In this document: positions 204-61,860 of the stretch, one piece after another
How the letters are laid out: every line of letters begins with the position of its first letter
Position numbering within the stretch: position 1 is the first letter of the stretch
Assembly: GCA_964399265.1 (NCBI GenBank)
Contig: CAYNQF010000003.1
Coordinates: 3,104-67,103 of the forward strand
Origin: an uncultured bacterium
Lineage (GTDB): Bacteria > Joyebacterota > Joyebacteria > Joyebacterales > Joyebacteraceae
DNA length: 64,000 nt
Direction of reading: 5' to 3'
Position numbers and translations under genes: made by a program
Notes under the pieces: generated by a model
The model's database searches: none
Seen by the model: only the letters and a program-made list of their open reading frames with translations
What the model was told of the DNA's origin: nothing

Positions 204-206
204 CCG

Positions 207-1751: not shown

Positions 1752-1756
1752 AGGGG

Positions 1757-2854: not shown

Positions 2855-2920
2855 GGGGACCGCGCGTTCCGACTGGCGTCGCGTTTCGCGGCTCAGAATT
2901 CCCCGGGGAGACTATCCGAG

Positions 2921-11212: not shown

Positions 11213-11291
11213 GGATCCCGCGAACTTCATGCTCCTCTCGTTTGTAGTTCACTGCGCAGGTGACAGCATCACTCCTTCTTCCGGAGGCGGT

Positions 11292-26188: not shown

Positions 26189-26490
26189 GGTCTGTCCCTT
26201 CCAGGGGGTCTTGCGGCAGTTCATCGGAGGAGGGGGTGAGGAGGACAATTCCATTGTTCGCTCCGAGCCGGCGTCCAGTCAAGGGGTTTCTGACGACCAT
26301 TTGGCTTGCAGCGCCTCAGGCGCCGGGGGGCATCTCCGCTCCTTGACTTTACACCCACTTCGGCCGGTGTTATCCTAGATTGCTCAATCGGCCCCGTGGG
26401 TGGGCCGATTCGGCACGTTTCCCCTTTGGATACAGGTGTCCTTTATCGGACGAGGCCGGTCGGCCCCAGACGAACGGAGGAAAGCACCAG

Positions 26491-30837: not shown

Positions 30838-31293
30838 GTTGCCTCCTCGTCTCGGTGTCGCGGCGTCGCCACGCACGCCTTGGCCCGTCGTGCCCGCCCG
30901 TCGTCCGTCGGATCTCCCCCGACGGGGCTCGCGGAACACACTTCGGCCCCGCCGGACACGGAGATCCGCTGCCATGATCAGTCCAAAGGGGACGCGTCTG
31001 ATCACGCCGGTGCCGACGAGGCCTGCCTGAACGGGGTTGCAGAGATTGTACACGATGGGCGCCGGGCCCACAAGATGGGCGATTTCTGAGACTCGGGCCA
31101 CTATTCTTCCCCGGTCGTGCGCTCTGCCGACGGTGCTCCGTGGGCGACATCGGCTCCCGTTGTCCATTGGGTGTTTCAACATCACGGACTCTGGGTGTAT
31201 CTTAATATGTGTGTGACGAGCATGGGAGGTCGCCGAGCCTCCCTGGACGGTCTCCGCCCCCGAGGCCGACATCCCCCCGAGGAGAGCATCCAG

Positions 31294-36181: not shown

Positions 36182-39100
36182 ATGAGACAGACGTCGAGCA
36201 CTCCGAGGGCCCTTCTGGCCGCTTTGGCGGTCCTGGTCTTGCTGTTTGCCGGAAGCGCGGCTGCGGGAGTCACGACCCAGCACTACGAGTTCGCGGAGCC
36301 GGTCGTGACGGAGGCCGGCGGGTACGCCCACGTGGAGATGGACGGCGCCACGACCTACGGTGAGCCGGGCAAGCCGGCCCTGCCGGTCACGGGCGCGAGC
36401 ATCCTTCTGCCACCGGGAGAGGAACTGGTGAGCGTGAGGGTGGTCCCTGGTGAGAAGGTCACGCTCCCGGGCAGCTACCTGGTCGAACCCGGGCAGAGGC
36501 AGTATCCGCTTTCGTACGCGGGCCCTGTGGAGCGGTACTCGGCCGATTACGCCGGGCTGGGCGCCTACCCTTCCGAGAGGAACGGCGGCTCGACCTTCGG
36601 ATTCTACAGAGGACACGGTATTGCCAGCGTGTCTCTTCTGCCGGTCGAGTACGACGCGGAGTCCGGCCGGATCTCTTACTACTCGAGCATGGACGTCGAG
36701 ATAGAGAGCGCACCGACGGAGAAGGCGGCGCGCACCGCCGAGCGCATGATCCGCGTCGACGCCGGAACTAACGCGACGCTAACGCGCATCGTCGACAACT
36801 CCCCACGAAAGACCCTCTATAACGCGATAGACAGGGTGAGGCCGCTCAGCCGGTCGCTCGATCCTTCACTCGACTACAAGTATGTCATCATAACGACGAG
36901 TTCGTGGGACGACTATCTCACCGACTTCGCGGAGTTCGAGACACAGCGCGGCTACAAGGCGGGCATCTTCCTGCGTTCGTGGATCTCGTCGAACTACGCC
37001 GGTGACGACGACCAGATGAAGATCAGGAACTTCATCATAGATGCGTACGACACGTGGGACATCGACTACGTGCTTCTGGTCGGCGACGCGCGCGATGCCA
37101 ACGGCATCCCGCACCGAGGTATGTGGAACGATGCCTACGGCGAGTATGAGGACGACCTGCCGGCCGATGTCTACTACTCCAGCCTGGACGGCAACTGGAA
37201 CACCGACGGTGACAATCTCTGGGGCGAGTACAGCCCCGAGGAAGCCGACCTCTATCCCGAGGTTGCAATCGGCCGCGTCTGCGCGGACGACGTCGCCGGC
37301 GTGCAGAACTTCGTCACGAAGACGATGCGCTACGTCGACTCGCCGGTCGTGGGAGAGTGCGACGAGGCGTTGATGGTTGGGGAGCTTCTCTGGTCCAGCC
37401 CGCTAACCTACGGCGGAACGTACATGGACGAGGTGATGAACGGCTCGTCCGCCAACGGCTACACGACCGTAGGATTCCCCGGCACGATGAACATGGACAC
37501 GCTATACGATCGCGACGGGACGTGGAGCTACTCGACGCTCATTAGCATGATGGAGAGCGGCCTCAACATCGTGAATCACCTGGGGCACAGCAACACGACG
37601 TACGCGATGAAGATGGACACGGGCGACATTCCATCGTTCGATAACGACGGCACGACCCACACGCTCAACTTCGTCTACAGCCAGGGTTGCTACTGCGGTG
37701 CATTCGACGACAGGGACACGTACGGCAGCTACGGCAGCGACTGTTTCGCCGAACAGTTCACGACGGACGACGACGGTGCCGTGGCGGTCATCATGAACTC
37801 GCGCTACGGCTGGGGCGACCCGGGTGGAACGAACGGATCGTCGCAGTACTTCAACCGGGAGTTCTTCGACGCGATGTTCTCCGAGGGCATCTACACTCTG
37901 GGCGAGGCGAACGACGACTCCAAGGTCGACGCTCTCTGGGCGATCACCTACGGCGCCAATCGCTGGTGTCATTACGAGCTGAACCTGTTCGGCGATCCGG
38001 CGCTTGAGCCGTGGACGGCCGAGCCGACGGCGCTCACCGTGAACCACCCGTCGACGATCATGGTCGACCAGCCGGACATGGAGTTTGTCGTTACCGACGG
38101 CCGCGCGGCGGTTGCCGGAGCCCGTGTGACCATCTGGACCGACGACTACTCGGTCTACGACACGGGACTCACCGACGCGCAAGGTGAGGTGACCGTACAT
38201 CCCAGCGCGGGGTCAGAGGGCACGCTCAACATCAAGGTCCATGCTCACGACCATCTCACGTGGGGCGGCACCGTTGCGGTCACGCCCGCCAGCGGGGCGT
38301 ACGTCGTCCTGGAGGACTACGTCGTCGATGACGACCAGAGCGGCGAGAGCAGCGGAAACGGCAACGCGATCGTCAACGCCGGCGAAGACGTCGAGCTCGT
38401 GGTCACTCTCGAGAACGTCCTTGTCGATGACGCCTACGGGGTAACTGCTACGCTCTCGACGAGCAGCAGCAGAGTGTCGATTACGGACGACTACGAGGAA
38501 TACGGGGACATACCGGCCCTGGCGTCGGCACAGTGTCTGGATGACTACAATCTGACGATATCGTCCGACACGCCCGACGGCGAAGTGATACCGCTCACAC
38601 TGACGGTGACCGATGCAACGCGGAGCACTTGGGAGTCGGACTTCACCATCACGGTCGCGTCCCCGGTAGTGGAGTACGCCGACCATTCGTCCGACGACCC
38701 GCCGTACGGCGGCAATGGAAGCGGCTGCCTTGAGGCCGGCGAGACGGTGGTGCTGAGCCTGTCACTCACGAACTCCGGGAGCGCCGGAGCGACCGGCGTG
38801 ACGGCCACCATTTCGAGCACGGACCCGTACGTTCAGATCAACGACGACTCGGCCGCCATCTCCTCGCTCGGGTCCGGGTCCACACAGGCGGTGTCTCCCG
38901 ACTTCTCGGTGACCCTCCTGCCCACTTGTCCGGAGCTGCACGAGATCATCTTCGATGTCGCCGTTACGGCGGATTGGGGATACTCCGCGTCGCACCAGTT
39001 CAGCATGCTCTCGGGAGGCGCCCCGTTCACCGACGACGTCGAGCAAGGCGAAGGAAAGTGGACGCACGGGGTGGTTACACCGAGCTTCGGTGACGAGTGG

Positions 39101-39877
39101 CACGTGGACACGTATCGCTACCACACGAGCGGCCACAGCTGGAAGTGCGGTGGGTCCGGATCGCTTGACTACGGCGACTCGAACGACGGCGCACTGGTCA
39201 TGAGGCCAATGTGCATAGGTGCGAACGGCGTGTTCTCGTTCTGGCACTGGATGGACGCCGAGGAGGAGGGCTCGACGTCGGCCTGGGACTGCGGATTCCT
39301 TCAGATCTCCACCGACGGCGGGGACACCTGGAGTGTTCTCTACCCGGACGGCGGCTACAGCCACACGAAGAACACCAACTCGGCCAACCCTGTGCCCGAG
39401 GGAACGCCGTGCTGGTCCGGCACGTTCAGCTGGACACAGGAGACCTGCGATCTCTCGGCCTATGCGGGCCAGACCATTGAGATCCGCTTCAGGTTCGCCT
39501 CGGACGGGTACGTTACCGGCGAGGGTTGGTACATCGATGACATCGACCTGACCTTCGATGCCGGAGGAACGTCCGGCCTGGAGGAAGGCGAGGTCCCGGC
39601 GGTCTTCGCGCTCAGGCAGAACGTGCCCAACCCGTTCAACCCCGTCACGGTGATATCCTACCAGCTGCCGCAGGCCGGACACGTCAAGCTCGACGTCTAC
39701 AACGTGGCCGGCAAGCTCGTGACGACGCTCGTCGACGAGGCGCAGCAGCCCGGTTTGAAGTCGGTGACGTGGGACGGGACCGACGCGAAGGGCAACAAGG
39801 TCGCGAGCGGCGTCTATCTGTACAGAATCGAGGCCGGAGACGACGTGGCCAAGAAGATGATGGTGTTGCTGAAGTAG
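36182..39877 (+). CDS. Giant secreted C25 (gingipain-like) cysteine peptidase with a T9SS C-terminal sorting domain (paralog 2, 1231 aa)
   Basis: GGGAGGAGAG RBS and signal peptide. Same architecture as paralog 1 (VNHLGHSNTTY, VYSQGCYCGAFD). C-terminal NVPNPFNPVTVISYQLP...VYLYRI...KKMMVLLK. Confidence 0.75.
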   Translation: MRQTSSTPRALLAALAVLVLLFAGSAAAGVTTQHYEFAEPVVTEAGGYAHVEMDGATTYGEPGKPALPVTGASILLPPGEELVSVRVVPGEKVTLPGSYLVEPGQRQYPLSYAGPVERYSADYAGLGAYPSERNGGSTFGFYRGHGIASVSLLPVEYDAESGRISYYSSMDVEIESAPTEKAARTAERMIRVDAGTNATLTRIVDNSPRKTLYNAIDRVRPLSRSLDPSLDYKYVIITTSSWDDYLTDFAEFETQRGYKAGIFLRSWISSNYAGDDDQMKIRNFIIDAYDTWDIDYVLLVGDARDANGIPHRGMWNDAYGEYEDDLPADVYYSSLDGNWNTDGDNLWGEYSPEEADLYPEVAIGRVCADDVAGVQNFVTKTMRYVDSPVVGECDEALMVGELLWSSPLTYGGTYMDEVMNGSSANGYTTVGFPGTMNMDTLYDRDGTWSYSTLISMMESGLNIVNHLGHSNTTYAMKMDTGDIPSFDNDGTTHTLNFVYSQGCYCGAFDDRDTYGSYGSDCFAEQFTTDDDGAVAVIMNSRYGWGDPGGTNGSSQYFNREFFDAMFSEGIYTLGEANDDSKVDALWAITYGANRWCHYELNLFGDPALEPWTAEPTALTVNHPSTIMVDQPDMEFVVTDGRAAVAGARVTIWTDDYSVYDTGLTDAQGEVTVHPSAGSEGTLNIKVHAHDHLTWGGTVAVTPASGAYVVLEDYVVDDDQSGESSGNGNAIVNAGEDVELVVTLENVLVDDAYGVTATLSTSSSRVSITDDYEEYGDIPALASAQCLDDYNLTISSDTPDGEVIPLTLTVTDATRSTWESDFTITVASPVVEYADHSSDDPPYGGNGSGCLEAGETVVLSLSLTNSGSAGATGVTATISSTDPYVQINDDSAAISSLGSGSTQAVSPDFSVTLLPTCPELHEIIFDVAVTADWGYSASHQFSMLSGGAPFTDDVEQGEGKWTHGVVTPSFGDEWHVDTYRYHTSGHSWKCGGSGSLDYGDSNDGALVMRPMCIGANGVFSFWHWMDAEEEGSTSAWDCGFLQISTDGGDTWSVLYPDGGYSHTKNTNSANPVPEGTPCWSGTFSWTQETCDLSAYAGQTIEIRFRFASDGYVTGEGWYIDDIDLTFDAGGTSGLEEGEVPAVFALRQNVPNPFNPVTVISYQLPQAGHVKLDVYNVAGKLVTTLVDEAQQPGLKSVTWDGTDAKGNKVASGVYLYRIEAGDDVAKKMMVLLK

Positions 39878-42298: not shown

Positions 42299-43405
42299 CT
42301 AGTCGAGCGTGAACTTCCCGTCCTTGTAGACCACCTTCCCGTCGGCGTAGATCTTGCCGCCGTCGCGCATGTCGGTGACCATGTCCCAATGGATGGCCGA
42401 CTCGTTCACTCCGAGCGACTCTGGAATCGACGCCCCCATGGCCATGTGGACGGTGCCGCCGATCTTCTCGTCGAAGAGCGTGTTACGGGTGAACTTCTGT
42501 ACCGAATAGTTGGTGCCGATGGCGAACTCTCCGACTCGCTTGGCCCCGTCATCCGTGTTGAGCATGGCCTCGAGGAAGTCCTGGCCCTTTGAGGCCGTGG
42601 CCTTGACGATACGGCCCTTCTTGAACGTAAGCCGGACTCCCTCGGCCTCCCTTCCGTAGTAGAAGGCGGGGAAGGAGAACGTGATCGAGCCCTCGACCGA
42701 GTCCTCGACGGGTCCCGTGAAGATCTCGCCGTCCGGCATGTTCGCCTTGCCGTCGCAGTTGACCCACTTGCGTCCAGCGACCTTCATCGTGAGGTCGGTC
42801 CCCTTCGTCACAACGCGGACCTTCCTGGCGTGGTCGAGACGCTTGCAGATCCTCGCCTGCTTGCGATGCACCGACTTCCAGGCGGCTATTGGGTCCTTCT
42901 TGTTCACAAGACAGGCGTCCAGGACGAAGTTCTCGTACTCCGGGAGCGACATCTCGGCATCCTGGGCGCTCGCATTGGTCGGGAACTGCGTCCCCACCCA
43001 CTTGAGCTCTCCGGCGGCCTCACGCTCGTTCCACCGCCTCATTATCGGCGCGGTGGCACTCGCGCGCTCCCGCTGCCTGTCCGGGTCGACGTTGGCCAGA
43101 TCCTTGGTGTTCTCGTCGGCCCAGAACGAGATGAACTTGTCCGTCTTCTCTACTTCCTCCATGGCGACGGGGCTCAGGAATCTGAGCTGATCCTTTCTGG
43201 CCTCCTTGAGGAATATCTCGGAGATCCCGGGCAGGTGGCACCTGACGAACGGATGACCGCCGGCCTTCAGGCATTCCCTGTAGACCTCCTTCGTCAGAAG
43301 CTCGGCCACCGGGTACGTCTGTATGGCCACCAGATCTCCCTTCCCGACCTCGACCGAGTAGTTCACAAGCACCTTCGCGAGCGCTTCGTATCTCGGGTCT
43401 CTCAC
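42299..43405 (-). CDS. Aminopeptidase, M29 family (AmpS/aminopeptidase T-like), paralog A
   Basis: Homologous along its whole length to the downstream gene. Start at GTG 43405 with GGAG RBS. The longer ORF-track N-terminus has no homology to the paralog. Confidence 0.7.
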   Translation of the reverse strand: MRDPRYEALAKVLVNYSVEVGKGDLVAIQTYPVAELLTKEVYRECLKAGGHPFVRCHLPGISEIFLKEARKDQLRFLSPVAMEEVEKTDKFISFWADENTKDLANVDPDRQRERASATAPIMRRWNEREAAGELKWVGTQFPTNASAQDAEMSLPEYENFVLDACLVNKKDPIAAWKSVHRKQARICKRLDHARKVRVVTKGTDLTMKVAGRKWVNCDGKANMPDGEIFTGPVEDSVEGSITFSFPAFYYGREAEGVRLTFKKGRIVKATASKGQDFLEAMLNTDDGAKRVGEFAIGTNYSVQKFTRNTLFDEKIGGTVHMAMGASIPESLGVNESAIHWDMVTDMRDGGKIYADGKVVYKDGKFTLD

Positions 43406-43507
43406 CTGGATCTCCTCACTGCAGTGGCGGCTGCGCTCCGACTCTGATGATGGCACGGACGGACGACTATGTCCGATGGGCATGCCGCTCAGCGCGGCGC
43501 CCGGGTT

Positions 43508-44611
43508 CTACTCCGTGAACTTGCCGTCCTTGTAGATGACCTTGCCGTCGGCGTATATGGTGCCGCCGTCGCGCATGTCGTTCACCATGTCCCAGTGGAT
43601 GCCTGACTTGTTCTTGCCTCCGGTGTCGGGGTACGAGGCCCCGAGCGCCATGTGTATCGTGCCGCCGATCTTCTCGTCGAAGAGCGTGTTCTTCGTGAAC
43701 TTCTGGATCGAGTAATTGGTTCCCACGGCGATCTCGCCCACGAACCTGCCGCCGGCGTCGGTGTCGAGGCTCGCGTTCAGGAAGTCGTCACCCTTATCCG
43801 CGCGCGCCTTCACCGCCTTCCCCTTCTTGAACTCGATCGTTACTCCGTATGCCTCCCTTCCGCCGTAGCAGGCGGGGAAGGAGAACGCGATCTTGCCCTC
43901 CACCGAATTCTCGATGGGGCCGGTGAAGATCTCTCCCGACGGCATGTTGTGTCTCCCGTCCGAGTTGATCCACTTGCGTCCCTCGACGCTCATCGAGATG
44001 TCGGTTCCCTTGGCGACGATGCGGAGCTTCTTGCACTGGTCCAGCATCTTGCAGATCTTCGCCTGCTTCCTGCGGACCGACTTCCAGGCCGCCACCGGGT
44101 CCTTCTTGTGGACGAGGCACGCCTTCAAGACGAAGTCCTCGTACTCGGAGAGCGACATCTCCGCGTCCTGGGCGCTCGCGTCACACGGGAACTGTGTGCC
44201 GCACCAGTCCAGCTCGCCCGCAGCCGAGCGCGACATGAACTTGTCGGAGATCTCGCTGTGCGCGGCCCTGGCAATCGCCATGCGCTGCGGGTCGATGTTG
44301 GCGAGCGTCTTGGTGTTGGACGAGGCCCGGATGTTCAGGAGTTTGTCGATCGTGTCGATCGTGAACTCGGCGAGCGGGCTCACGTGCGTGAGCTGATGTT
44401 TCTTGGCCTCGCTGTAGAAGATCTCGTCGAGGCCCGGCAGGCTCAAGCGCATGAACGGATGTCCTCCGGCCGCGAGCGCCCTGCGGTAGACCTCACGCAG
44501 CAGCGGTGCAGCGATCGGCGTGGAGTTGATCTGAACGAGGTCGCCCTTCTCGACCTCGAGGCAGTAGTCGACCAGGACCTCTGCGAGCTTGACGTAGCGG
44601 GGATCTGTCAC
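43508..44611 (-). CDS. Aminopeptidase, M29 family, paralog B
   Basis: N-terminus MTDPRYVKLAEVLVDYCLEVEKGDLVQI, and conserved FTGPIENSVEG and HMALG regions. Confidence 0.8.
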   Translation of the reverse strand: MTDPRYVKLAEVLVDYCLEVEKGDLVQINSTPIAAPLLREVYRRALAAGGHPFMRLSLPGLDEIFYSEAKKHQLTHVSPLAEFTIDTIDKLLNIRASSNTKTLANIDPQRMAIARAAHSEISDKFMSRSAAGELDWCGTQFPCDASAQDAEMSLSEYEDFVLKACLVHKKDPVAAWKSVRRKQAKICKMLDQCKKLRIVAKGTDISMSVEGRKWINSDGRHNMPSGEIFTGPIENSVEGKIAFSFPACYGGREAYGVTIEFKKGKAVKARADKGDDFLNASLDTDAGGRFVGEIAVGTNYSIQKFTKNTLFDEKIGGTIHMALGASYPDTGGKNKSGIHWDMVNDMRDGGTIYADGKVIYKDGKFTE

Positions 44612-55375: not shown

Positions 55376-56764
55376 TCAGCGGTAGAGGGCCTTGATCGCG
55401 CCCCAGGAGGTGGGCCGGACGGAGGGCTGGGAGCACTCTTCTCCGCGGGCGCCGATCAGGACGCCCCAGGCGTTGTTGCCGGGGAGGCAGGGAGAGGTGG
55501 AGGCGAGCGACAGGTCGCCCGCGCCGGGGTCGCAGAAGAGCGGGTCCAGGCAGATGAGGTCTCCGCCGTCGCAGGCGGCACCGCAGATGTCGTCCCCGCT
55601 CGCGTTCCCGAAGGAGCAGCAGTCGATCACGTCGAGACTGCTCGTGGCGTCGCAGTAGAACGAAAGTCCCCTCGTCGTCTCCGCCGTCGTGGCGCTATCG
55701 CGGCCGTGGTCCGGCTGACGATCTGCCTCTCCGCGCAGCGCGTAACCCGACGACGCGAAGAGAGAGCGAATGAGCGTCGCGTGTGAGTCGCTCACCGCAT
55801 AGAGTGCCTCGCCGTCGGCGGCTCCCTGGGCCCGGTTGGCGTAGCAAGTGACGTTAGTAAGTGTGGGTGATGCCTTCTGACAGTGAAGAGCGCCACCGCC
55901 ATCGGCTGACCCTGCGATGTTCCCGATGAACGTTACGTTCACGAGCGTCGGCGACGAGTCGTAGCACGCGAGTCCGCCGCCCTTGTTGGCGAGGTTGTCC
56001 TCGAAGGTGGAGCGGACGACGCTCACGTCCGAATCGAACTTGCAAAAGAGCCCGCCGCCCGCGCCCTTGAACGTGTTCGTGTTGTTCGCGAACGTGCAGT
56101 CGGAGAACTTCGCGCTCGAGCCCCACGTGCAGTAGACGCCTCCACCTCCGGTGTACGCGTAGTTGGACTCGAAACGCACGTTCCTGAAGACGGGGACGCA
56201 GTCCTTGTTGATGTAGACTCCACCGCCTGGACCGCCGTAGCTTTGGTTGTCGGTCACGATGCAGTTTGTGAACTTCGGACTGGTCGGCGTCTGCGGCGTG
56301 GGCGAACCGTCGATGAAGATACCCGCGCCCTCGTAGTAGGGTAGAGACTGACGCCCACCGGCGATGGTGAACCCATCTATGACGCAGGTCGTGTCCTGGC
56401 CGCCGTTCACGAAGATGAAGATGCGGTAACTGCCTATGCCCTGGTTGTCTATGAGCGTTTCCTCCGCGCCGTCGCGGCTCCTCAGGACCAGGTTCTTCGT
56501 CCCGAACTCGATGTCGCGGTTACCCTCGCCGGTGTACGTGCCGGGGTAGACGAGTACGGTGTCGCCCTCGGATGCCGCGTCGACGCCGGCCTGTATCGTC
56601 CGGTGGTCGCCCGAATCTCCGACGTCGACGACTATAGTAGACGCGGCCGCGTCGCCGGATGTCACGAGCGGCGTTCCCAGCACGGCCGCGGCGGCCCAGA
56701 GAAGGGCCGCCGCCGTCGCGTGCGAGTGTCGAGCCGTGTGCCTCCGTGTGGCGCCGTCTACCAA
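55376..56764 (-). CDS. Secreted right-handed parallel beta-helix repeat protein ending in the SWGAIKALYR motif
   Basis: PbH1-like repeats (NCIVTDNQSYGGPGGGVYI..., CTFANNTNTFKGAGGGLFC...). Start proposed at TTG 56764 with AGGAGA RBS and an RR-containing signal (MVDGATRRHTARHSHATAAALLWAAAAVLG). The longer ORF-track N-terminus overlaps the upstream gene and has no RBS. Confidence 0.65.
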   Translation of the reverse strand: MVDGATRRHTARHSHATAAALLWAAAAVLGTPLVTSGDAAASTIVVDVGDSGDHRTIQAGVDAASEGDTVLVYPGTYTGEGNRDIEFGTKNLVLRSRDGAEETLIDNQGIGSYRIFIFVNGGQDTTCVIDGFTIAGGRQSLPYYEGAGIFIDGSPTPQTPTSPKFTNCIVTDNQSYGGPGGGVYINKDCVPVFRNVRFESNYAYTGGGGVYCTWGSSAKFSDCTFANNTNTFKGAGGGLFCKFDSDVSVVRSTFEDNLANKGGGLACYDSSPTLVNVTFIGNIAGSADGGGALHCQKASPTLTNVTCYANRAQGAADGEALYAVSDSHATLIRSLFASSGYALRGEADRQPDHGRDSATTAETTRGLSFYCDATSSLDVIDCCSFGNASGDDICGAACDGGDLICLDPLFCDPGAGDLSLASTSPCLPGNNAWGVLIGARGEECSQPSVRPTSWGAIKALYR

Positions 56765-58146
56765 CCCCGCGCCTCCTTGAGAAGCCTGTCGGTCTCGGCG
56801 ACCTTGGCCTGCTCGGCGAGCCAGAATTCGGGGTCGCGCTGCGCGTCGAGCTGTTCGACCGTCTTCCCCTGCTGCTCGACCCACGTGTAGTACTTCAGAT
56901 TGAACCAGCTCTGCTTGGCCAGGCGGGTACCCTCGCGTATCCAGTCGAGCTTGGCGCCGTGGAATATCGAGCCCACCCTGACGGCCGCCTCTATCTCGTC
57001 CATCGGCCCGTACGTCTCGGTGAGGTCGGCCATCACCGAGTGGTAGCGGTCCATCGTGTCGGTCGCCACCGTGAACACGGTCTGGTCGCTCCCCATCTGG
57101 TAGAACTTGGCCGTCTTGATCGCGGCGAGTACGTTGCAGACGCCCGAGATCCCCATGATCTCGCTCATCTCCCGGATGCTCTCCTCTGGGACGCCGTAGC
57201 GGTCGGACATGATCTTCCAGCCCGCCTCCTCAGTCAGGAGCTGGAGGCCCTTCTTCGATTCGATGTCGTCGATGCACATGATGGCGTCCATCTCGAACAC
57301 GTTGTGGATCCAGGTGACGTGCTTGTCGCCGATGCCCTGGATGTCGTGTCCGCCGTACCCGTTCCAGTAGAGCGTCGGGCACTCGATCGGCTCGACGCCG
57401 ATCGTGAGGGCGTCGTGGAACTCATGCTTGAGACGCTCGCCGGCCGCTATCGTTCCGGCCGAGCCCATCGCCGACACGAACGCCGCGACTCGGCCGTTGC
57501 CGATGCCCTTCTCGTGCAGCTCTCGGGCGACCTCGATGCAGGAGCTGCCGGTGCAGTAGTAGTGGAAGCGGTAGTTCCCGAACTCTTCGAACTGGTTCAT
57601 GATGCGGTTCTTGGGGTCCTTCCGCAGTTCGTTCGCCTTGTCGTAGATCTCCTTGACGTTGCTCTCGCAACCGGGCGTCTTGACGTACTGCGCGCCGAAC
57701 CACTCGATCTGCTCGAACCGCTCGCGGCTCATGAGCTCGGGCAGTATAACGATCGAGTCGTAGCCCATCCTCGGGCCTACGTATGCGCCACCTATTCCGT
57801 AGTTCCCGGTCGACGGCCACACGAGCGTGTGCTCGCCCGGCTCGATGTCGCCGTGGAGCTGATGCTCGATGCAGACGGAATACGTGGCACCGACCTTGTG
57901 GCTCCTCGTGGGGAAATCCTTGCTGTATAGGACCGCGATGTTGGCGTCGACGCCCGTCAGCTCCTTCGGCAGTACGACGTGGTATATGCGGCCCTCGGTG
58001 TTCCTCCATGTGATGTTGAAGAGGTTGTACTCCGAGAGCGGGTCGTTCTTCGCCGCTTCGAGCGCCTTTGCGCGAACGTCCTGGCGGATCTTGTCGGGAT
58101 GCAGCATCTCTTCGAAAGTGGGTCCGTAAACGTGCTTCCTGGTCAT
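56758..58146 (-). CDS. PLP-dependent fold-type II enzyme (TrpB/CysK superfamily), 462 aa
   Basis: PSTGNYGIGGAYVG (SxGNxG PLP-phosphate loop). Start at ATG 58146 with AGGAGA RBS. Confidence 0.75.
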   Translation of the reverse strand: MTRKHVYGPTFEEMLHPDKIRQDVRAKALEAAKNDPLSEYNLFNITWRNTEGRIYHVVLPKELTGVDANIAVLYSKDFPTRSHKVGATYSVCIEHQLHGDIEPGEHTLVWPSTGNYGIGGAYVGPRMGYDSIVILPELMSRERFEQIEWFGAQYVKTPGCESNVKEIYDKANELRKDPKNRIMNQFEEFGNYRFHYYCTGSSCIEVARELHEKGIGNGRVAAFVSAMGSAGTIAAGERLKHEFHDALTIGVEPIECPTLYWNGYGGHDIQGIGDKHVTWIHNVFEMDAIMCIDDIESKKGLQLLTEEAGWKIMSDRYGVPEESIREMSEIMGISGVCNVLAAIKTAKFYQMGSDQTVFTVATDTMDRYHSVMADLTETYGPMDEIEAAVRVGSIFHGAKLDWIREGTRLAKQSWFNLKYYTWVEQQGKTVEQLDAQRDPEFWLAEQAKVAETDRLLKEARGW

Positions 58147-58189
58147 TCTGTCTCCTGTTGTCACAGCCCGCCCGTTCGAGGTTGCGGGC

Positions 58190-59185
58190 CTACATGTCCA
58201 CCTGCAACTCGAGGATGTCTCCATCCTCCACCACGTGATCTCCGTCAACCGTCTGTCCGTCGAACTTCCCGGAGCCCCAGACGCGGGCGGTCCTCAGCTT
58301 GTCTCCGAACTCCCTGTGTATCTTCCTGGCCACGTCGGTCACAGTGCTGCCTCGAGGCATGATGAACGGACGGTTCATGTCGGCCGGCTTGCCCGGGACC
58401 TTTCCGTAGACGCGGACGATCCTGAGCATCGCGACCAGCGTGCGCTTCAGTTCGTCCATCCCATGTCCCAGGCCGGCACAGACAGGAACGATCAGAAATT
58501 CGTCTCCGATCACCTCGCGCAGAAACGCCAGGTTCTCTGCCGCGTCCGGGCTGTCGGTCTTGTTCGCGACCACGATCGTCGGCTTGACGTCGCGCGGCAA
58601 CTCGTCCTCGGAGGGGTCGTGTCTGCGGCTCAGGCGGATGTGCTTCTCGGCCAGCGCGTCCTTGACGAACTGGAATGAGTCCACGCAGTCGTCGGCGTCA
58701 AGGTCGACCACGAGGAGTGCGGCGTCCGCGTTCCGTATGATCTCCGGAACCCACGAGTCTATGTGGTCCGGGGACAGAGGAGGAATGTCGATGAGCTGCA
58801 GCTGGATGTCCTCGTACGGCATCATCGCCGGTTGCGGCGCCCGCGTGGTGAAGGGGTAGGGGGCAACCTCCGGCTCGGCGTTCGTCGCTATCGCCACGAG
58901 CTGTGACTTCCCTACGTTGGGGGTGCCGATCAGCACGACCTGCGGCGCCTCCTCCTTAGGGACGTGGTACGACGGTCCGGAGCGCCCCTTCTTGCGGCTC
59001 TGCTGCTCCTCCTCGCGGAGCTTCGAGAGCCTTCTGCGCATGTCCGCGCGCAGATGGTCGGTGCCCTTGTGTTTCGGGCATACGGCCATCATCTCCTGCA
59101 GGGCAGCGATCCGCTCCTGCACGGTCTTCGCTTCGCGGAACTTCCGCTCCGCTACCTTGAAATCAGGTGGAAGATTCGCAGGCAT
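58190..59185 (-). CDS. Obg/DRG-like GTP-binding protein with a C-terminal TGS domain
   Basis: G1 (LIGTPNVGKSQL), then NKTD, and a C-terminal TGS-like beta-grasp (VRVYGKVPGK...GSTVTDVARKIHREFGDKLRTARVWG). Confidence 0.8.
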   Translation of the reverse strand: MPANLPPDFKVAERKFREAKTVQERIAALQEMMAVCPKHKGTDHLRADMRRRLSKLREEEQQSRKKGRSGPSYHVPKEEAPQVVLIGTPNVGKSQLVAIATNAEPEVAPYPFTTRAPQPAMMPYEDIQLQLIDIPPLSPDHIDSWVPEIIRNADAALLVVDLDADDCVDSFQFVKDALAEKHIRLSRRHDPSEDELPRDVKPTIVVANKTDSPDAAENLAFLREVIGDEFLIVPVCAGLGHGMDELKRTLVAMLRIVRVYGKVPGKPADMNRPFIMPRGSTVTDVARKIHREFGDKLRTARVWGSGKFDGQTVDGDHVVEDGDILELQVDM

Positions 59186-59331
59186 GCCTTCTCCGGGACC
59201 TCCGTCTCATAGCCGAAGTACGATGATAACGCGTGACGGGGTCGCCAGACAACAACGACCGCCACGGGAACGAGCCCGTGGCGGCCGTCTTTCGGACTCC
59301 TGGTCGACGCTCCCCCGGTCCGGTACCGGTT

Positions 59332-60411
59332 CTAGCGGAACATCGACTTAATGAAACCCCAAGATGTCGATTCTACCGGCGTTCCCGTCGTGGCGAGGAT
59401 GTAGCTCTGGTCCTCGGAATCGCGCGGCCAGGCGCCCGCCTCGTTGAGCACGGCCTCGAGCGCTTCGGCCGGCCCCATCTCCGTCACCTGCGGTGCGGGG
59501 TATCTGATGCCCGTGGTCCCGCACGCGCCGCACGAGGAAGGCATCAGATTTCCGCTCATGTAGACGCCCTCGGCGTCTTCGCTGATGACGATCGCGTCGT
59601 GCTCGTCGCTCCTGGGAGTGGCGAGGTAGTAGTTGTTCACCAGATTCGCTGTCGTTCCGTTGCGCAGACGCGTGCCGTAGTTCGTCGACCAGTCGCAGAT
59701 CACGTTGTTGACCATGTCGACGTTGTCGGCGTCGTCCAACTGCGGATTGCGCTCGTCGCCACCCACGTAGAGGTTGTGGTGGAGCGACAGGTTGTAGAGG
59801 TCGGTCCGTATGAGCGAGTTCTTCACCGTCTCGGCGATGATGCACCACTGGACCGTCACGTCGTGCGCCCGGTCGGAGATGTCGACACACCCATCGCCTC
59901 CGCGACGGAACGAGCAGTGGTCGACGACGACGTTGTATGCGTCGTCCCAGATCCGAAGATTGTCTCCGAGATCGGGGTCGGGCGCATCGCATACGCGGAT
60001 GTTCCTGACGATGATGTCGTGGCACTCCTTGAGGTCCAGGAGCGCGCCGGTTACACCCGTGTTCTCCGCGGTGATGGTAATGCCCGGCGAGGGTGCGGTC
60101 GTGCCGTCGATGGTGATGTAGCTGCCCGATACTCTGATCGTGCTCGTTAGCTCGATCGTTCCACTCACCGCGAACGTCACGTTGCGGTTGGAGCCGGCGA
60201 GCGCGTCGCGCAGCGTGCCCGGCCCGCTGTCCGCGAGCGATGTTACCTGATAGTCGGTTCCGCCCGAACCTCCTGGCGTGTCAGCTCCGTACCCCTCGAG
60301 CGGCCGGTCTCTCAAGCCGGCTGCCGCCGTCGCGGCCTCGGGGGCGGTCGCGAGTGCTGCAGTGAGGAGAAGGAGACCTGACAGAACCAGGATCACAGAT
60401 GCAGTGCGCAT
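59332..60411 (-). CDS. Secreted pectate-lyase-like right-handed beta-helix protein ending in SWGFIKSMFR
   Basis: AAGGAGGG RBS and signal peptide (MRTASVILVLSGLLLLTAALATA). PL1-like segment VVVDHCSFRRGGDGCVDIS. Parallel beta-helix repeats. Confidence 0.75.
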   Translation of the reverse strand: MRTASVILVLSGLLLLTAALATAPEAATAAAGLRDRPLEGYGADTPGGSGGTDYQVTSLADSGPGTLRDALAGSNRNVTFAVSGTIELTSTIRVSGSYITIDGTTAPSPGITITAENTGVTGALLDLKECHDIIVRNIRVCDAPDPDLGDNLRIWDDAYNVVVDHCSFRRGGDGCVDISDRAHDVTVQWCIIAETVKNSLIRTDLYNLSLHHNLYVGGDERNPQLDDADNVDMVNNVICDWSTNYGTRLRNGTTANLVNNYYLATPRSDEHDAIVISEDAEGVYMSGNLMPSSCGACGTTGIRYPAPQVTEMGPAEALEAVLNEAGAWPRDSEDQSYILATTGTPVESTSWGFIKSMFR

Positions 60412-60573
60412 GTCATCCCTCCTTCGTTCCGGACAACGTAGCATTGAGTGCCCAGAACTGCAAGAAATGTTCCTCTGGAGGGGGCATTTCTTTCCTACGT
60501 GAAACACCTGTGATAGAATCGAACATATCCTTGTGGGTGCACGCTCTTGGTTGACTGCCGGAGGGATGGAGAG

Positions 60574-61860
60574 GTGAAACGTCTGTTACTGACCATCGTT
60601 CTGTGCGTGACGATGACACTTGTCTCGTCGGTGGTCGGGGCCGACGTCATCCACGTGCCCGATGGTGTGGGCTCGATCAGCCTCGCTCTCCTCGTGGCCG
60701 GCCCGGGCGACACGATCCTGGTCGCTCCCGGGACCTACCACGTCAACCTGGAGTGGCCGGACAAGTCCGGCCTCAAGCTCCTCTCAGAGACGGGGTCCGG
60801 GCAGACCGTGCTCGACGGAAGCGCCGACGTCCAGGTCATCGGTGTGTACACCGGCGTCGACACCACGACCGTCATCTCAGGCTTCACCATCAGGAACGGG
60901 CACGCCGAAGGGCAATGACCCTGGTGCTCCGGCGGCGGGGTCCGCTGCCTCAACTCGTCACCGCTCTTCACCGACAACGTCTTTTCGGAGAACACGGCCG
61001 AGAACCACGGCGCAGCCTTCCACTGCGAGGACAGCGACGTCGTCGTGCGCGACTGCGAGTTCGTCGGCAACTCGGGCGGGTCGGGCTCCGGCGCCTGGGT
61101 CGAGGGCGACTCTCGCGCACGCTTCGTGCGCTGTCGCTTCAAGGGAAACACCTCGACCGGTGTGGGCGGGGCCGTGGCGACCGACGGGCAGGCCGACGTG
61201 TTGCTTCGCGACTGTGAGTTCACGGACAACACGGGCGGCTCGGGAGGCGGAGTGTGCGTGTCGGTCGGTACGGCGACGATCGAGGACTGCACGTTCGCCG
61301 GCAACGATGCTGACTTCGGGGGAGGGCTGTGCTTCATCTCCGCTGACGACGTCATCGTGCGTTCGACGACCGTCGCCTCGAGCGACGCGTCGTACCAGGG
61401 AGGTGGCGTCTACGCGTCCGACTCGGTCTTCGAGATGGAGGACTGCTCGGTCTCCGGATGCCGCTCGACCACACAGGGAGGCGCGGCGTGGATGCTCTCG
61501 TCGTCGGCTTTGTTCTCCCGCTGCTCGTTTCTGGCGAACTGGTCGGGAGGATTCGGCGGAGGGCTCTACGTCGACGGGGCCGGCGTGACCGCGCACGTAT
61601 GCGAGTTCGAGGGCAACGGAGTCGCGATATACGTCCGGCCGGCGTCCGGCATGCTGTCGGCGCCCCGAAGTCACGTCGACGCGACGTGGTCGTGGTGGGG
61701 TGACGCATCGGGGCCGTACAACCCGAGCGGCAATCCCTTCGGGACGGGGGACGAGGTGTCGGACGGCGTGACGTTCACGCCATGGAACACGACGTCGTCG
61801 GTGGGGGAGCCGCAGTCGGTCCCGACCACGTGGAGCGCCATCAAGTCCGGCTATAGGTAG
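60574..61860 (+). pseudogene. Beta-helix repeat protein gene interrupted by a single in-frame TGA at 60916-60918. The two ORF halves are in the same frame.
   Basis: GGAGGG RBS, GTG 60574 and a signal peptide (KRLLLTIVLCVTMTLVSSVVGA). Read-through gives continuous PbH1 repeats (...TIRNGHAEGQ*PWCSGGGVRCLNSSPLFTDNVFSENTAENHGAAFHCEDSDVVVRDCEFVGNSGG...). C-terminus ends TTWSAIKSGYR. Confidence 0.6.

What the first reader, a model, noticed from the sequence alone, without database searches (positions are those of the whole stretch)
55376..61860. Three secreted beta-helix proteins share an identical-type C-terminal decapeptide [ST]-W-[GS]-x-I-K-x-x-[YF]-R-COOH: a candidate novel sorting or secretion tag distinct from the T9SS CTD
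The C-termini are:
- ...PSVRPTSWGAIKALYR (55376-56764, minus strand)
- ...TPVESTSWGFIKSMFR (59332-60411, minus strand)
- ...PQSVPTTWSAIKSGYR (60574-61860, plus strand)

All three are Sec-signal-bearing right-handed parallel beta-helix (pectate-lyase-like) proteins. In all three the motif is the extreme C-terminus, preceded by a P/S/T-rich linker.

It has no TM helix, so it is unlike the exosortase, archaeosortase or sortase signals. It is much shorter than the T9SS CTD used by other cargo in the same window, and it does not fit the OMP beta-signal.

Recurrence on three neighbouring paralog-like genes suggests a dedicated recognition tag. It could serve a surface-attachment, export or processing pathway.
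Basis: seen in the sequence. Interest (0 to 1): 0.65.

Follow-up and report, generated by a model that had tools for sequence, protein, structure and literature searches.

The report
New short C-terminal protein-sorting tag
Three exported proteins in this window end in the same ~17-residue tail, which also ends dozens of unrelated exported proteins in Eisenbacteria and related phyla, swaps with known secretion domains and matches no described signal, so it is probably a new surface-sorting tag.

Summary
Three genes end in [ST]-W-[GS]-x-I-K-x-x-[YF]-R-stop. These are the only three motif hits in the six-frame translation, and 0 of 300 simulated windows had any.

It is not a paralogue quirk. A scan of species-representative genomes hit its 120-locus limit: 133 of 133 matches end at a true stop and close real ORFs. 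99 of 107 have Sec-type signal peptides. The carriers fall into 57 unrelated clusters (beta-helix, FG-GAP, CBM20, NHL, PD40, MAM and others). Hosts are mainly Candidatus Eisenbacteria, plus Krumholzibacteria, Latescibacterota, Gemmatimonadota and Fibrobacteraceae. One small family carries it in Ignavibacteria, Chlorobi and Bacteroidota.

The full tag is P-[TV]-P-V-E-x-x-[ST]-W-G-x-I-K-[AS]-[LM]-[YF]-R-COOH. Orthologues carry either this tag, a T9SS CTD or a dockerin. AlphaFold2 models it as a short helix on a flexible linker.

No Pfam, NCBIfam, PDB or literature match was found. It meets 6 of Haft's 8 sorting-signal attributes but lacks the transmembrane helix and Arg cluster. No partner gene was found, so the function is inferred.

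Side finding: gene 3 has an in-frame TGA conserved in 8 of 8 orthologues (U-P-W-C), so it is probably a secreted selenoprotein.

The parts
55376..56764 (-). Gene 1: exported PMP-repeat right-handed beta-helix protein (462 aa; stop codon 55376-55378) carrying the tag
   Evidence: ORF. PF13229 and Chlam_PMP. AF2 beta-helix with mean pLDDT 88.7. 62 of 120 homologues end in the same tag. The syntenic orthologue in L121 keeps the tag.
55379..55429 (-). Tag of gene 1: QPSVRPTSWGAIKALYR-COOH
   Evidence: AF2 models residues 454-461 (WGAIKALY) as a helix with pLDDT 61-75, after a coil linker.
56642..56764 (-). Approximate Sec signal peptide of gene 1 (...ATAAALLWAAAAVLGTPLVTSGDAAAS|TIVV). The exact start codon is uncertain.
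   Evidence: Sequence. The assignment is by eye and heuristic, not a dedicated predictor.
59332..60411 (-). Gene 2: exported pectate-lyase-like beta-helix protein (359 aa; stop codon 59332-59334) carrying the tag
   Evidence: ORF. PF00544 and partial NF041900 (PelZ). Tagged pectate-lyase homologues occur in other genomes (L032, L037). The L121 orthologue has an identical tail.
59335..59385 (-). Tag of gene 2: GTPVESTSWGFIKSMFR-COOH
   Evidence: It contains the extended consensus P-V-E-x-x-S-W-G.
60319..60411 (-). Approximate Sec signal peptide of gene 2 (MRTASVILVLSGLLLLTAALATAPEAATAAAG)
   Evidence: Sequence; assigned by eye and heuristic.
60574..61860 (+). Gene 3: exported PMP-repeat beta-helix protein carrying the tag, interrupted by one conserved in-frame TGA
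   Evidence: PF13229. All 8 orthologues have the same single TGA. Orthologues end either in the tag or in a T9SS CTD.
60574..60642 (+). Approximate Sec signal peptide of gene 3 (VKRLLLTIVLCVTMTLVSSVVGA|DVIHV), lying upstream of the TGA
   Evidence: assigned by eye and heuristic.
60916..60918 (+). Conserved in-frame TGA in gene 3. Candidate selenocysteine codon in the motif G-Q-U-P-W-C (UxxC).
   Evidence: 8 of 8 orthologues. The closest database orthologues are all called as starting just after this point.
60910..60946 (+). Conserved RNA hairpin spanning and following the TGA (core 60917-60942). Candidate SECIS-like element.
   Evidence: 13 pairs kept in 8 sequences. Variation falls in the loop, a bulge, G.U wobble positions and the helix ends, and 5 cells in 3 pairs are broken. 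The 41 nt after the TGA are identical between the window and L121, while synonymous sites elsewhere are about 55% identical. The evidence is not decisive. The single-sequence fold has z = 0.05. There is no Rfam hit. There are no compensatory double changes.
61807..61857 (+). Tag of gene 3: EPQSVPTTWSAIKSGYR-COOH (variant with Ser in place of the usual Gly)
   Evidence: The L121 orthologue has the canonical ...AVESTWGAIKSLYR.

Best explanation
The tail is a modular C-terminal sorting or retention tag of about 17 residues, found on Sec-exported proteins. Its consensus is P-[TV]-P-V-E-x-x-[ST]-W-G-x-I-K-[AS]-[LM]-[YF]-R-COOH.

Proposed mechanism:
1. The N-terminal signal peptide takes the cargo across the inner membrane.
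2. The folded cargo then presents the tag. The tag is a Pro-rich hinge followed by a two-to-three-turn helix that ends in Tyr-Arg at the free C-terminus.
3. A conserved protein receptor specific to the FCB lineage, still unidentified and separate from T9SS-CTD recognition, binds the tag.
4. That receptor either passes the cargo across the outer membrane or holds it at the outer membrane or cell surface.

On this reading the tag does the same job as the T9SS CTD or a dockerin, with which it is exchanged in orthologues.

What is shown:
- The tag exists and is strictly C-terminal.
- It is modular and occurs many times per genome.
- It is found on proteins with signal peptides.
- It is interchangeable with known sorting domains.
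- It is absent from curated libraries.

What is inferred:
- That it controls localisation.
- That a dedicated receptor exists.
- The destination of the cargo.
For: C-terminal position:
- 133 of 133 genome-scan matches end at a true stop, although the pattern also allowed TGG.
- 26 further motif copies, not selected by the stop requirement, were found in the fetched loci. 19 end at the stop, 7 have 1-7 extra residues, and none is internal.

Modularity:
- The carriers form 57 unrelated clusters after the tail is removed.
- They contain 27 Pfam families typical of extracellular proteins.

Export:
- 99 of 107 carriers have a signal-peptide-like N-terminus.

Multiplicity:
- There are up to 9 tags in 24 kb held from one assembly.
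- Tandem arrays occur.
- There are 3 tags in this window.

Conservation beyond what the search pattern imposed:
- P-[TV]-P-V-E at positions -17 to -13.
- [AS] at -4.
- L/M at -3.
- Near-invariance of six or more residues across phyla argues for recognition by a protein rather than general membrane affinity.

Swapping at the same junction:
- In the gene 1 family, 62 members have the tag, at least 11 have a T9SS CTD (PF18962/PF13860) and 5 have a dockerin.
- In the gene 3 family, members have either the tag or a T9SS CTD.

Structure:
- AF2 places the tag as a separate short helix after a coil linker, with lower confidence than the body.

Other:
- The tag meets Haft's attributes 1, 2, 3, 6, 7 and 8 for small C-terminal sorting signals.
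- It coexists in this window with three TIGR04183-positive T9SS cargo genes. The genome therefore uses two different C-terminal signals.
Against: - There is no experimental or proteomic evidence for localisation or processing.
- No candidate receptor or enzyme was found. No untagged gene family recurs in more than 6 of the 120 tag-bearing loci. The 14 small-family loci share no conserved neighbour, and the two examined in detail sit among unrelated genes.
- The tag lacks the transmembrane helix and Arg cluster that every characterised small C-terminal sorting signal has (attributes 4 and 5). It therefore cannot work the way those signals do.
- Some carriers tolerate 1-10 extra residues after the Arg. 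A free carboxylate on the Arg is therefore not strictly required.
- The taxonomic range coincides with the T9SS-bearing FCB superphylum. This fits a T9SS-dependent route equally well.
Taxon frequencies are therefore approximate.
Confidence: 0.45

Rival explanations
1. The tag is a minimal entry or attachment signal for the type IX secretion system itself. It would be recognised by the T9SS translocon, a shuttle such as PorV or SprA, or the PorU-type sortase, in place of the folded ~80-aa CTD.
For: - The labelled carriers are almost all FCB-superphylum lineages, where T9SS occurs.
- The tag and the T9SS CTD replace each other at the same junction in orthologues.
- Like many T9SS CTDs in this window, the tag ends in hydrophobic residues followed by a basic residue. 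Compare ...KKMMVLLK and ...RRVVVLH with ...IKALYR.
- The window's genome clearly has T9SS cargo, plus two C25-family peptidases with weak similarity to PorU and PorU2.
Against: - There is no sequence similarity to TIGR04183 or to any CTD model.
- 17 residues cannot form the Ig-like beta-sandwich that defines the CTD (established knowledge of T9SS CTD structures).
- If both signals fed one machine, it is unclear why closely related genomes maintain both on orthologous cargo.
- Apart from one small family, Bacteroidota were nearly absent among the hits. That phylum holds most T9SS genomes. Codon bias in the search pattern may contribute to this.
- The C25 proteins score far below the PorU cutoffs: 83 bits against 420, and 38 against 450.
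Confidence: 0.2
2. The tag is an autonomous peripheral anchor. It would be a short amphipathic helix rich in Trp, Tyr, Lys and Arg that sticks exported proteins to the periplasmic face of a membrane, or to anionic LPS, without any dedicated machinery. It would work like the C-terminal amphipathic helices of PBP5/6 or the membrane-targeting sequences of MinD and FtsA.
For: - AF2 predicts a helix for WGAIKALY.
- On a 100-degree helical wheel, W, I, L and Y fall on one face and K and R flank it.
- The variable position x at -7 lies on the opposite face.
- No partner gene was found.
- Short extensions after the Arg are tolerated.
Against: - The hydrophobic moment is not significantly above that of shuffled tails: 0.54 against 0.40 +/- 0.18, and it is equally high at 180 degrees.
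- Nine residues is short for a stable in-plane anchor.
- Generic lipid binding does not explain the near-invariant Gly, the Ser/Thr, and the upstream P-x-P-V-E across phyla and unrelated cargo.
- An anchor in the periplasm would not explain why polysaccharide-degrading cargo that needs to reach the outside swaps this tag with secretion domains.
Confidence: 0.15
3. The tag is a processing or degradation signal rather than a sorting signal. It would be a C-terminal recognition peptide for a periplasmic or surface protease, such as a tail-specific or PDZ-type protease, that controls maturation, latency or turnover of exported enzymes.
For: - The strict C-terminal position with a mostly free carboxylate is typical of PDZ-type and tail-specific recognition (established knowledge).
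- P-V-E upstream of the helix could be a cleavage site.
- S41 and other peptidase genes occur near some tagged genes, for example in L126. This was not systematic.
Against: - Many carriers have no obvious enzymatic domain needing activation: Ig-like, FG-GAP, NHL, LTD and CHRD domains.
- Exchange with T9SS CTDs and dockerins points to localisation rather than turnover.
- Known Prc/Tsp substrates end in non-polar residues, not Tyr-Arg (established knowledge).
- No protease gene recurs next to tagged genes.
Confidence: 0.08
4. The tail has no signalling role. It would be only a conserved structural cap, or a relic shared by descent within a family of paralogues.
For: - Within this window all three carriers are beta-helix proteins.
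- In the small 135-aa family the tail is part of a tightly conserved protein.
Against: - It is found on 57 unrelated clusters with many folds.
- It is joined by variable, unstructured linkers and modelled apart from the core.
- It is replaced by T9SS CTDs or dockerins in orthologues without loss of the cargo domain.
Confidence: 0.02

Closest known systems
T9SS C-terminal domains (type A TIGR04183 / PF18962; FlgD_ig-type PF13860)
   Same: - Found at the C-terminus of Sec-exported, often carbohydrate-active or adhesin-like cargo in FCB-superphylum bacteria.
- Modular, and present many times per genome.
- Occupies the same junction in orthologues.
- Both end in hydrophobic residues plus a basic residue.
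   Different: - About 17 aa rather than about 70-100 aa.
- Predicted as a short helix rather than an Ig-like beta-sandwich.
- No HMM match.
- Both types coexist in this window.
Small tripartite C-terminal sorting signals: LPXTG/sortase, PEP-CTERM/exosortase, GlyGly-CTERM/rhombosortase, MYXO-CTERM/myxosortase (Haft 2023, doi 10.1101/2023.06.07.544157)
   Same: - A short tag at the extreme C-terminus, with many copies per genome.
- At least three invariant signature residues.
- Carriers have signal peptides and are otherwise unrelated.
- Homologues carry other sorting signals. These are attributes 1, 2, 3, 6, 7 and 8.
- An upstream Pro/Glu motif (P-V-E) loosely recalls PEP.
   Different: - No hydrophobic transmembrane segment and no Arg cluster, only a 9-residue amphipathic stretch and a single terminal Arg (attributes 4 and 5 not met).
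- It therefore cannot be held in the membrane for a membrane-embedded sortase or protease.
- No cognate enzyme was identified.
C-terminal amphipathic-helix membrane anchors (E. coli PBP5/PBP6; MinD and FtsA membrane-targeting sequences). This comparison rests on my own knowledge and was not tested here.
   Same: - Terminal position and about 10-residue length.
- A mix of aromatic, aliphatic and basic residues.
- Predicted helix.
   Different: - Those anchors are conserved in pattern rather than in sequence.
- This tag has near-invariant W, G, I, K, Y and R plus an upstream PVE motif across phyla.
- Its amphipathicity is not statistically distinctive.
Dockerin modules (PF00404)
   Same: They replace the tag at the C-terminus of homologous beta-helix cargo (5 of 120 homologues). 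This suggests a role in docking to a partner.
   Different: A dockerin is a ~70-aa Ca-binding duplicated EF-hand-like module. It has no sequence relationship to the tag.
Outer-membrane-protein beta-signal (the C-terminal strand recognised by BamA). From my own knowledge.
   Same: A C-terminal short motif with an aromatic residue near the end.
   Different: - The beta-signal ends in an aromatic residue, usually Phe, and belongs to beta-barrel proteins.
- Here the last residue is Arg, and the cargo consists of soluble beta-helices, propellers and Ig-like domains.

Membership tests
Small tripartite C-terminal sorting signals (Haft attributes, doi 10.1101/2023.06.07.544157) | 1. [quoted passage not shown] | tested here: met
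   133 of 133 scan matches end at a stop. In the unbiased set, 19 of 26 end at the stop, 7 have 1-7 extra residues and none is internal.
Small tripartite C-terminal sorting signals (Haft attributes, doi 10.1101/2023.06.07.544157) | 2. [quoted passage not shown] | tested here: met
   There are 3 in this 64 kb window. Up to 9 and 8 tags occur in only 24-26 kb held from single assemblies. Tandem arrays occur in L025, L053 and L109.
Small tripartite C-terminal sorting signals (Haft attributes, doi 10.1101/2023.06.07.544157) | 3. [quoted passage not shown] | tested here: met
   W and K are invariant, and G and R are at least 90% conserved, among homologue tails not selected by any pattern. P-V-E, [AS] and L are conserved at positions the scan pattern left free.
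Small tripartite C-terminal sorting signals (Haft attributes, doi 10.1101/2023.06.07.544157) | 4. Strongly hydrophobic segment long enough for a transmembrane helix | tested here: not met
   Only 9-10 residues follow the motif start, and they include Lys and Arg. No transmembrane helix is possible.
Small tripartite C-terminal sorting signals (Haft attributes, doi 10.1101/2023.06.07.544157) | 5. Cluster of 2-5 basic residues at the end | tested here: not met
   There is a single terminal Arg, or rarely Lys or His.
Small tripartite C-terminal sorting signals (Haft attributes, doi 10.1101/2023.06.07.544157) | 6. Most carriers have an N-terminal signal peptide | tested here: met
   99 of 107 full-length carriers have one, by a hydrophobicity heuristic and inspection. 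This was not a dedicated predictor.
Small tripartite C-terminal sorting signals (Haft attributes, doi 10.1101/2023.06.07.544157) | 7. Many carrier pairs share no similarity outside the tag | tested here: met
   107 carriers form 57 single-linkage clusters at blastp E < 1e-5 after the last 16 aa are removed. They contain 27 different Pfam families.
Small tripartite C-terminal sorting signals (Haft attributes, doi 10.1101/2023.06.07.544157) | 8. Homologues elsewhere lack the tag or carry a different sorting signal | tested here: met
   In the gene 1 family, 62 members have the tag, at least 11 have a T9SS CTD and 5 have a dockerin. In the gene 3 family, members have the tag or a T9SS CTD.
Small tripartite C-terminal sorting signals (Haft attributes, doi 10.1101/2023.06.07.544157) | A cognate sorting enzyme co-occurs with the signal | not testable with these tools
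   This needs whole-genome phylogenetic profiling. Neighbourhood mining of 120 loci found no recurrent partner.
T9SS C-terminal domain (type A or B) | Match to TIGR04183, TIGR04131, PF18962 or PF13860 | tested here: not met
   There was no hit for the three proteins or for the bare tails. As positive controls, other ORFs in the same window scored 26.8-40.9 bits against a cutoff of 23.
T9SS C-terminal domain (type A or B) | A folded Ig-like beta-sandwich of about 70-100 aa | tested here: not met
   The conserved region is about 17 aa. AF2 gives one short helix.
OMP beta-signal | C-terminal residue aromatic (Phe, Trp or Tyr), on a beta-barrel protein | tested here: not met
   The terminal residue is Arg in 56 of 56 cluster representatives. 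The cargo consists of soluble folds.
Dockerin | PF00404 match | tested here: not met
   Dockerins occur instead of the tag in some homologues.
Bacterial selenoprotein (gene 3 only) | In-frame UGA conserved among orthologues, with conserved coding sequence on both sides | tested here: met
   8 of 8 orthologues have it. Those compared with the window are about 40-46% identical to it. The signal peptide lies only upstream of the UGA, and the export tag or CTD lies only downstream.
Bacterial selenoprotein (gene 3 only) | SECIS stem-loop immediately 3' of the UGA | tested here: inconclusive
   A conserved hairpin is present and synonymous sites are unusually conserved. However, there are no compensatory changes, the single-sequence fold has z = 0.05, and Rfam gives no hit.
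Bacterial selenoprotein (gene 3 only) | Homologues with Cys at the Sec position | tested here: not met
   No CPWC homologue was found. In paralogues the loop is absent or different.
Bacterial selenoprotein (gene 3 only) | selA, selB, selC and selD present in the genome | not testable with these tools
   Only 64 kb of the genome is available. The window has no tRNA gene.

The most novel reading that the evidence does not exclude
The tag is the address label of a protein-sorting pathway in diderm bacteria that has not been recognised before. The pathway would take folded, Sec-exported proteins to or across the outer membrane. It would use a ~17-residue, non-membrane-spanning C-terminal peptide and its own dedicated machinery, independent of T9SS, T2SS and the sortase/exosortase-type systems. 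It would be widespread in Eisenbacteria, Krumholzibacteria, Latescibacterota, Gemmatimonadota and Fibrobacterota.
Probability: 0.3. Interest if true: 0.9.

Novelty: new variant of a known kind. Interest (0 to 1): 0.72.

Why it matters
C-terminal sorting tags have repeatedly led to the discovery of new secretion and surface-anchoring machinery. LPXTG, PEP-CTERM, GlyGly-CTERM, MYXO-CTERM and the T9SS CTD are examples.

This tag marks dozens of exported proteins per genome in phyla known almost only from metagenomes. Nothing is known there about how degradative enzymes and adhesins reach the cell surface.

A regex or HMM for the tag would have three immediate uses:
- It would annotate a large set of 'hypothetical' proteins as an extracytoplasmic cargo class.
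- It would define the probable surface or secreted proteome of these lineages.
- It would provide the input profile for phylogenetic profiling to find the machinery.

The tag has no transmembrane segment and is far too short to fold like a CTD. Its mode of recognition must therefore differ from every characterised system.

A tagged family occurs in a cultured bacterium, Hymenobacter artigasi. This makes the question experimentally approachable.

The side finding matters in its own right. It is a secreted beta-helix protein with a conserved UGA in a U-P-W-C motif. It would add an unusual extracellular selenoprotein family, and it shows that gene callers systematically split these genes.

Tried and rejected
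Census of the 5.8-billion-protein database using the tail alone:
- A 40-mer profile ran, but the word index gave only 11 candidates and 2 fragments. This is uninformative about prevalence.

Other dead ends and null results:
The pattern actually used fixes ATC and AAG, so it under-samples low-GC lineages.
- Hydrophobic-moment analysis did not distinguish helix from strand, or from shuffled tails.
- Neighbourhood mining of the 120 loci, and separately of the 14 small-family loci, found only generic regulators, ABC ATPases, kinases and Maf. No candidate machinery emerged.
- Searches of Pfam, NCBIfam, the PDB and the literature for the tag all returned nothing.
- I considered whether the two tandem C25-like peptidases in the window are PorU-type sortases for the tag. 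They score far below the PorU and PorU2 cutoffs and carry ordinary T9SS CTDs. I treat them as cargo.

For the gene 3 TGA:
- Sequencing error or a recent pseudogene is rejected by the 8-of-8 conservation.
- A reassigned genetic code is rejected because TGA terminates gene 1 and many scan hits.
- Rfam gave no SECIS match.
- The single-sequence fold energy was not significant.

Full report
**1. The observation**

- Gene 1, 55376-56764(-), ends ...PSVRPTSWGAIKALYR-TGA.
- Gene 2, 59332-60411(-), ends ...TPVESTSWGFIKSMFR-TAG.
- Gene 3, 60574-61860(+), ends ...PQSVPTTWSAIKSGYR-TAG.

A deliberately loose regex, W[GSA].[IVLM][KR]..[YFW], matches only these three places in the six-frame translation of the whole window. 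Every match ends one residue before a stop. In 300 composition-matched (first-order Markov) simulated windows, the full motif followed by a stop never occurred. The loose motif occurred 0.47 times per simulated window on average.

The cargo assignments hold:
- Genes 1 and 3 are PMP-repeat right-handed beta-helices (PF13229, PF02415).
- Gene 2 is pectate-lyase-like (PF00544, partial PelZ).

All three N-termini look like Sec signal peptides.

The window also holds three ORFs that pass the curated T9SS type A CTD model (TIGR04183: 26.8, 30.2 and 40.9 bits against a cutoff of 23).

One correction is needed. Gene 3 contains an in-frame TGA at 60916-60918. See section 7.

**2. It is not a paralogue quirk**

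Homologues of gene 1 in the 5.8-billion-protein collection come from Candidatus Eisenbacteria where a source names them. Of the best 120:
- 62 end in [ST]WGx[IVL]Kxx[YF][RK] with nothing after it.
- 5 have the motif followed by 7-51 extra residues.
- Others in the same beta-helix family end in T9SS CTDs (at least 11 with PF18962 or PF13860) or in dockerins (5 with PF00404).

I then scanned one genome per GTDB species for the back-translated motif plus TRR, using the pattern WSNTGGGGNNNNATCAAGNNNNNNTWYMGNTRR. From uniform base composition I estimated about 35 chance matches in 596 Gb.

Results from the 133 matches:
- All 133 end in TAA, TAG or TGA. None ends in TGG, which the pattern also allows.
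- All close an open reading frame.
- 99 of 107 full-length carriers have a classical signal-peptide-like N-terminus.
- After removing the last 16 residues, the 107 carriers fall into 57 unrelated clusters at blastp E < 1e-5.
- They hit 27 Pfam families. These include Beta_helix, FG-GAP, LTD, CBM_20, InhA-like MAM, NHL, PD40, CHRD, CARDB, pullulanase X25 and Cleaved_Adhesin. This is a typical extracellular or surface repertoire.

**3. Anatomy of the tag**

I used one representative per cargo cluster. Positions the DNA pattern did not constrain are also conserved:
- P at -17
- T/V at -16
- P at -15
- V at -14
- E at -13
- A/S at -4
- L/M at -3

The tag is therefore about 17 residues: P-[TV]-P-V-E-x-x-[ST]-W-G-x-I-K-[AS]-[LM]-[YF]-R-COOH. 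About half of the carriers have a Cys a few residues upstream.

An unbiased test of position used 26 further motif copies in the fetched loci that the stop-requiring seed had not selected. 19 are followed directly by a stop, 7 have 1-7 extra residues, and none is internal.

Tagged genes are often tandemly arrayed. There are six in the 8 kb of L053 and four in L025. Single assemblies show up to 9 tags in the 24 kb I hold from them.

AF2 was run on gene 1 with a 62-sequence alignment. The beta-helix has pLDDT 96-98. It is followed by a coil linker and then a separate short helix at residues 454-461 (WGAIKALY) with pLDDT 61-75. This is an appended element, not a core strand.

On a helical wheel, W, I, L and Y share one face, with K and R beside them. 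The hydrophobic moment is not significantly different from shuffles, and it is equally high for strand periodicity. I therefore treat 'amphipathic helix' as a prediction only.

**4. Distribution**

Of 93 assemblies hit, 27 are labelled Eisenbacteria, counting one labelled Effluviviaceae. 4 are labelled Gemmatimonadota, 4 Krumholzibacteria, 2 Latescibacterota and 2 Fibrobacteraceae. 41 are unlabelled MAGs, and 3 carry isolated labels (2 Acidobacteriota, 1 Alphaproteobacteria) that may be binning noise. The remaining 10 are Ignavibacteria, Kapaibacterium, Melioribacter, Chlorobiaceae and Bacteroidota, described next.

A distinct situation holds in those 10 assemblies. There the tag was seen only on one small conserved family. 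Its layout is signal peptide, then a ~95-aa Ig/Fn3-like domain, then ...RTWGSIKAMFR. It has no Pfam or NCBIfam match. One carrier is the cultured Hymenobacter artigasi (L097).

All reliably labelled carriers therefore lie in the FCB superphylum.

Two caveats apply. The pattern fixes ATC and AAG, and the scan was truncated.

**5. Is it known?**

No match was found in any of these:
- NCBIfam release 20.0 (June 2026), which holds the curated CTERM models. This was checked with the full proteins and with bare tails at E <= 10.
- Pfam.
- PDB sequences.
- Full-text literature searches, including the motif written several ways.

Haft's 2023 survey of small C-terminal sorting domains lists eight diagnostic attributes (doi 10.1101/2023.06.07.544157). 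The tag meets six:
- C-terminal location (1)
- Many copies per genome (2)
- At least three invariant residues (3)
- Signal peptides on carriers (6)
- Unrelated carriers (7)
- Homologues with other sorting signals (8)

It fails two: the transmembrane segment (4) and the Arg cluster (5). By bioinformatic criteria it behaves like a sorting signal. It cannot work like the sortase, exosortase, rhombosortase or myxosortase signals, which must be held in the membrane.

**6. Mechanism**

I found no dedicated partner gene:
- No untagged family recurs in more than 6 of the 120 loci. Those that recur are sigma-54 regulators, ABC ATPases and kinases.
- The 14 small-family loci share no conserved neighbour. 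The two examined in detail (L097, L059) sit among unrelated genes.

My best-supported reading (0.45) is a docking peptide recognised after Sec export by a conserved, still unidentified receptor. That receptor would deliver or retain cargo at the outer membrane or cell surface. Three observations support this:
- The tag is exchanged with T9SS CTDs and dockerins at the same junction.
- Its near-invariant residues point to recognition by a protein.
- Much of the cargo acts on extracellular polymers.

The rivals are:
- A minimal T9SS signal (0.2). The FCB-restricted distribution fits this. The lack of any CTD-like fold or similarity argues against it.
- An autonomous amphipathic membrane or LPS anchor (0.15).
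- A protease-recognition or maturation signal (0.08).
- A mere structural relic (0.02). The data effectively exclude this.

None of the localisation claims is shown. All are inference.

**7. Gene 3 is probably a selenoprotein (side finding)**

The in-frame TGA at 60916-60918 is conserved in the syntenic orthologue L121. It is also conserved in six further independent orthologues: L124/L125, L126, L127, L128, L129 and L130. Those compared with the window are about 40-46% identical to it.

That makes 8 of 8. Each has exactly one internal stop, always TGA, in the invariant context G-x-[TGA]-P-W-C-S-G-[GA]-G-V-R.

Several further observations fit read-through:
- The closest database orthologues are gene calls that start just after this point.
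- Only the part upstream of the TGA has a signal peptide, while the part downstream carries the export tag or T9SS CTD. The two parts must therefore be one protein.
- TGA is an ordinary stop elsewhere in this genome.
- U-P-W-C is a UxxC redox motif.

Evidence on the RNA element is mixed:
- The 41 nt after the TGA are identical between the window and L121. Synonymous sites elsewhere in the gene are about 55% identical.
- A hairpin across and after the UGA is kept in all eight orthologues. Variation falls in the loop, a bulge, wobble positions and the helix ends, and 5 cells in 3 pairs are broken.
- There are no compensatory double changes.
- The single-sequence fold energy is unremarkable.
- Rfam has no match.
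- No Cys homologue exists, because paralogues lack this loop.
- The Sec machinery could not be checked.

I rate selenocysteine as the likeliest reading, but it is not proven.

**8. Verdict**

The finding is real, general and apparently undescribed. It is a candidate new class of C-terminal sorting tag: a known kind of device in a new, membrane-independent form. The machinery and destination remain to be found.

Noticed in passing
window 60916-60918 (TGA) and 60910-60946 (hairpin); orthologues L121, L124/L125, L126, L127, L128, L129, L130: Gene 3 has a single in-frame TGA that is conserved in 8 of 8 orthologues, in the context G-x-TGA-PWCSG[GA]GVR (a UxxC motif). A conserved hairpin and unusually conserved synonymous sites lie 3' of it. 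The signal peptide lies only upstream of the TGA, and the export tag or CTD lies only downstream. This is probably a secreted beta-helix selenoprotein that gene callers split in two. No Cys homologue was found, and the Sec machinery could not be checked.
   Followed up: yes
L002, L007, L012, L039, L050, L058, L059, L072, L076, L086, L087, L093, L097 (Hymenobacter artigasi, 6854-7273+), L120: A small conserved family of about 135 aa has the layout signal peptide, then an Ig/Fn3-like domain (W-x-T-x-x-E ... YYRLK), then ...RTWGSIKAMFR. It has no Pfam or NCBIfam match. It is the only carrier of the tag seen in Ignavibacteria, Kapabacteria, Chlorobi and Bacteroidota. It occurs in a cultured species, so it is a practical experimental entry point.
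   Followed up: partly
L059 4636-6291(+), with homologues in L086 and L120: In three Kapaibacterium, Melioribacter and Bacteroidota-labelled loci, the small tagged gene is immediately followed by a conserved ~550-aa protein. That protein contains an HELHH (HExxH-type metalloprotease-like) motif and has no Pfam match. The association was seen in only 3 of 14 loci, so it may be lineage synteny rather than a functional link.
   Followed up: no
window 31117-35022(+) and 36182-39877(+): Two tandem ~1230-1300-aa paralogues carry T9SS type A CTDs. They have weak, sub-threshold similarity to the PorU and PorU2 sortases and to MAM/M36-type regions (NF033707 at 83 and 81 bits against a cutoff of 420). 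They look like gingipain/C25-family surface peptidases rather than true PorU.
   Followed up: partly
window 26380-28848(+), C-terminal ~110 residues: A transketolase-like ORF ends in a long, highly basic Ala/Lys repeat tail (...KKTAKKAAKKTVKKTAKKAAKKAVKK...). The tail resembles histone H1 or AlgP-type tails, which is an unusual fusion for a metabolic enzyme.
   Followed up: no
L025 (four genes, 96-3402), L053 (six tags in 8 kb), L109 (three genes): Tagged genes often occur as tandem arrays of small paralogues of about 180-250 aa. This suggests local expansion of tagged cargo families.
   Followed up: no
window 10283-11212(+) and 11229-12200(+); 42299-43483(-) and 43508-44611(-): There are two pairs of adjacent paralogous genes. 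The first pair encodes exported ~310-aa proteins with similar sequences. The second pair encodes ~370-390-aa aminopeptidase-like proteins. They appear unrelated to the tag.
   Followed up: no
fold search of the gene 1 model: Among the weak structural matches is 'Rhombotarget A' (PDB 9cdu and 9cdv), a beta-helix substrate of the GlyGly-CTERM/rhombosortase system. It had the highest query TM-score, 0.44, at E = 0.015. Similar cargo may be routed by different C-terminal signals in other phyla.
   Followed up: no
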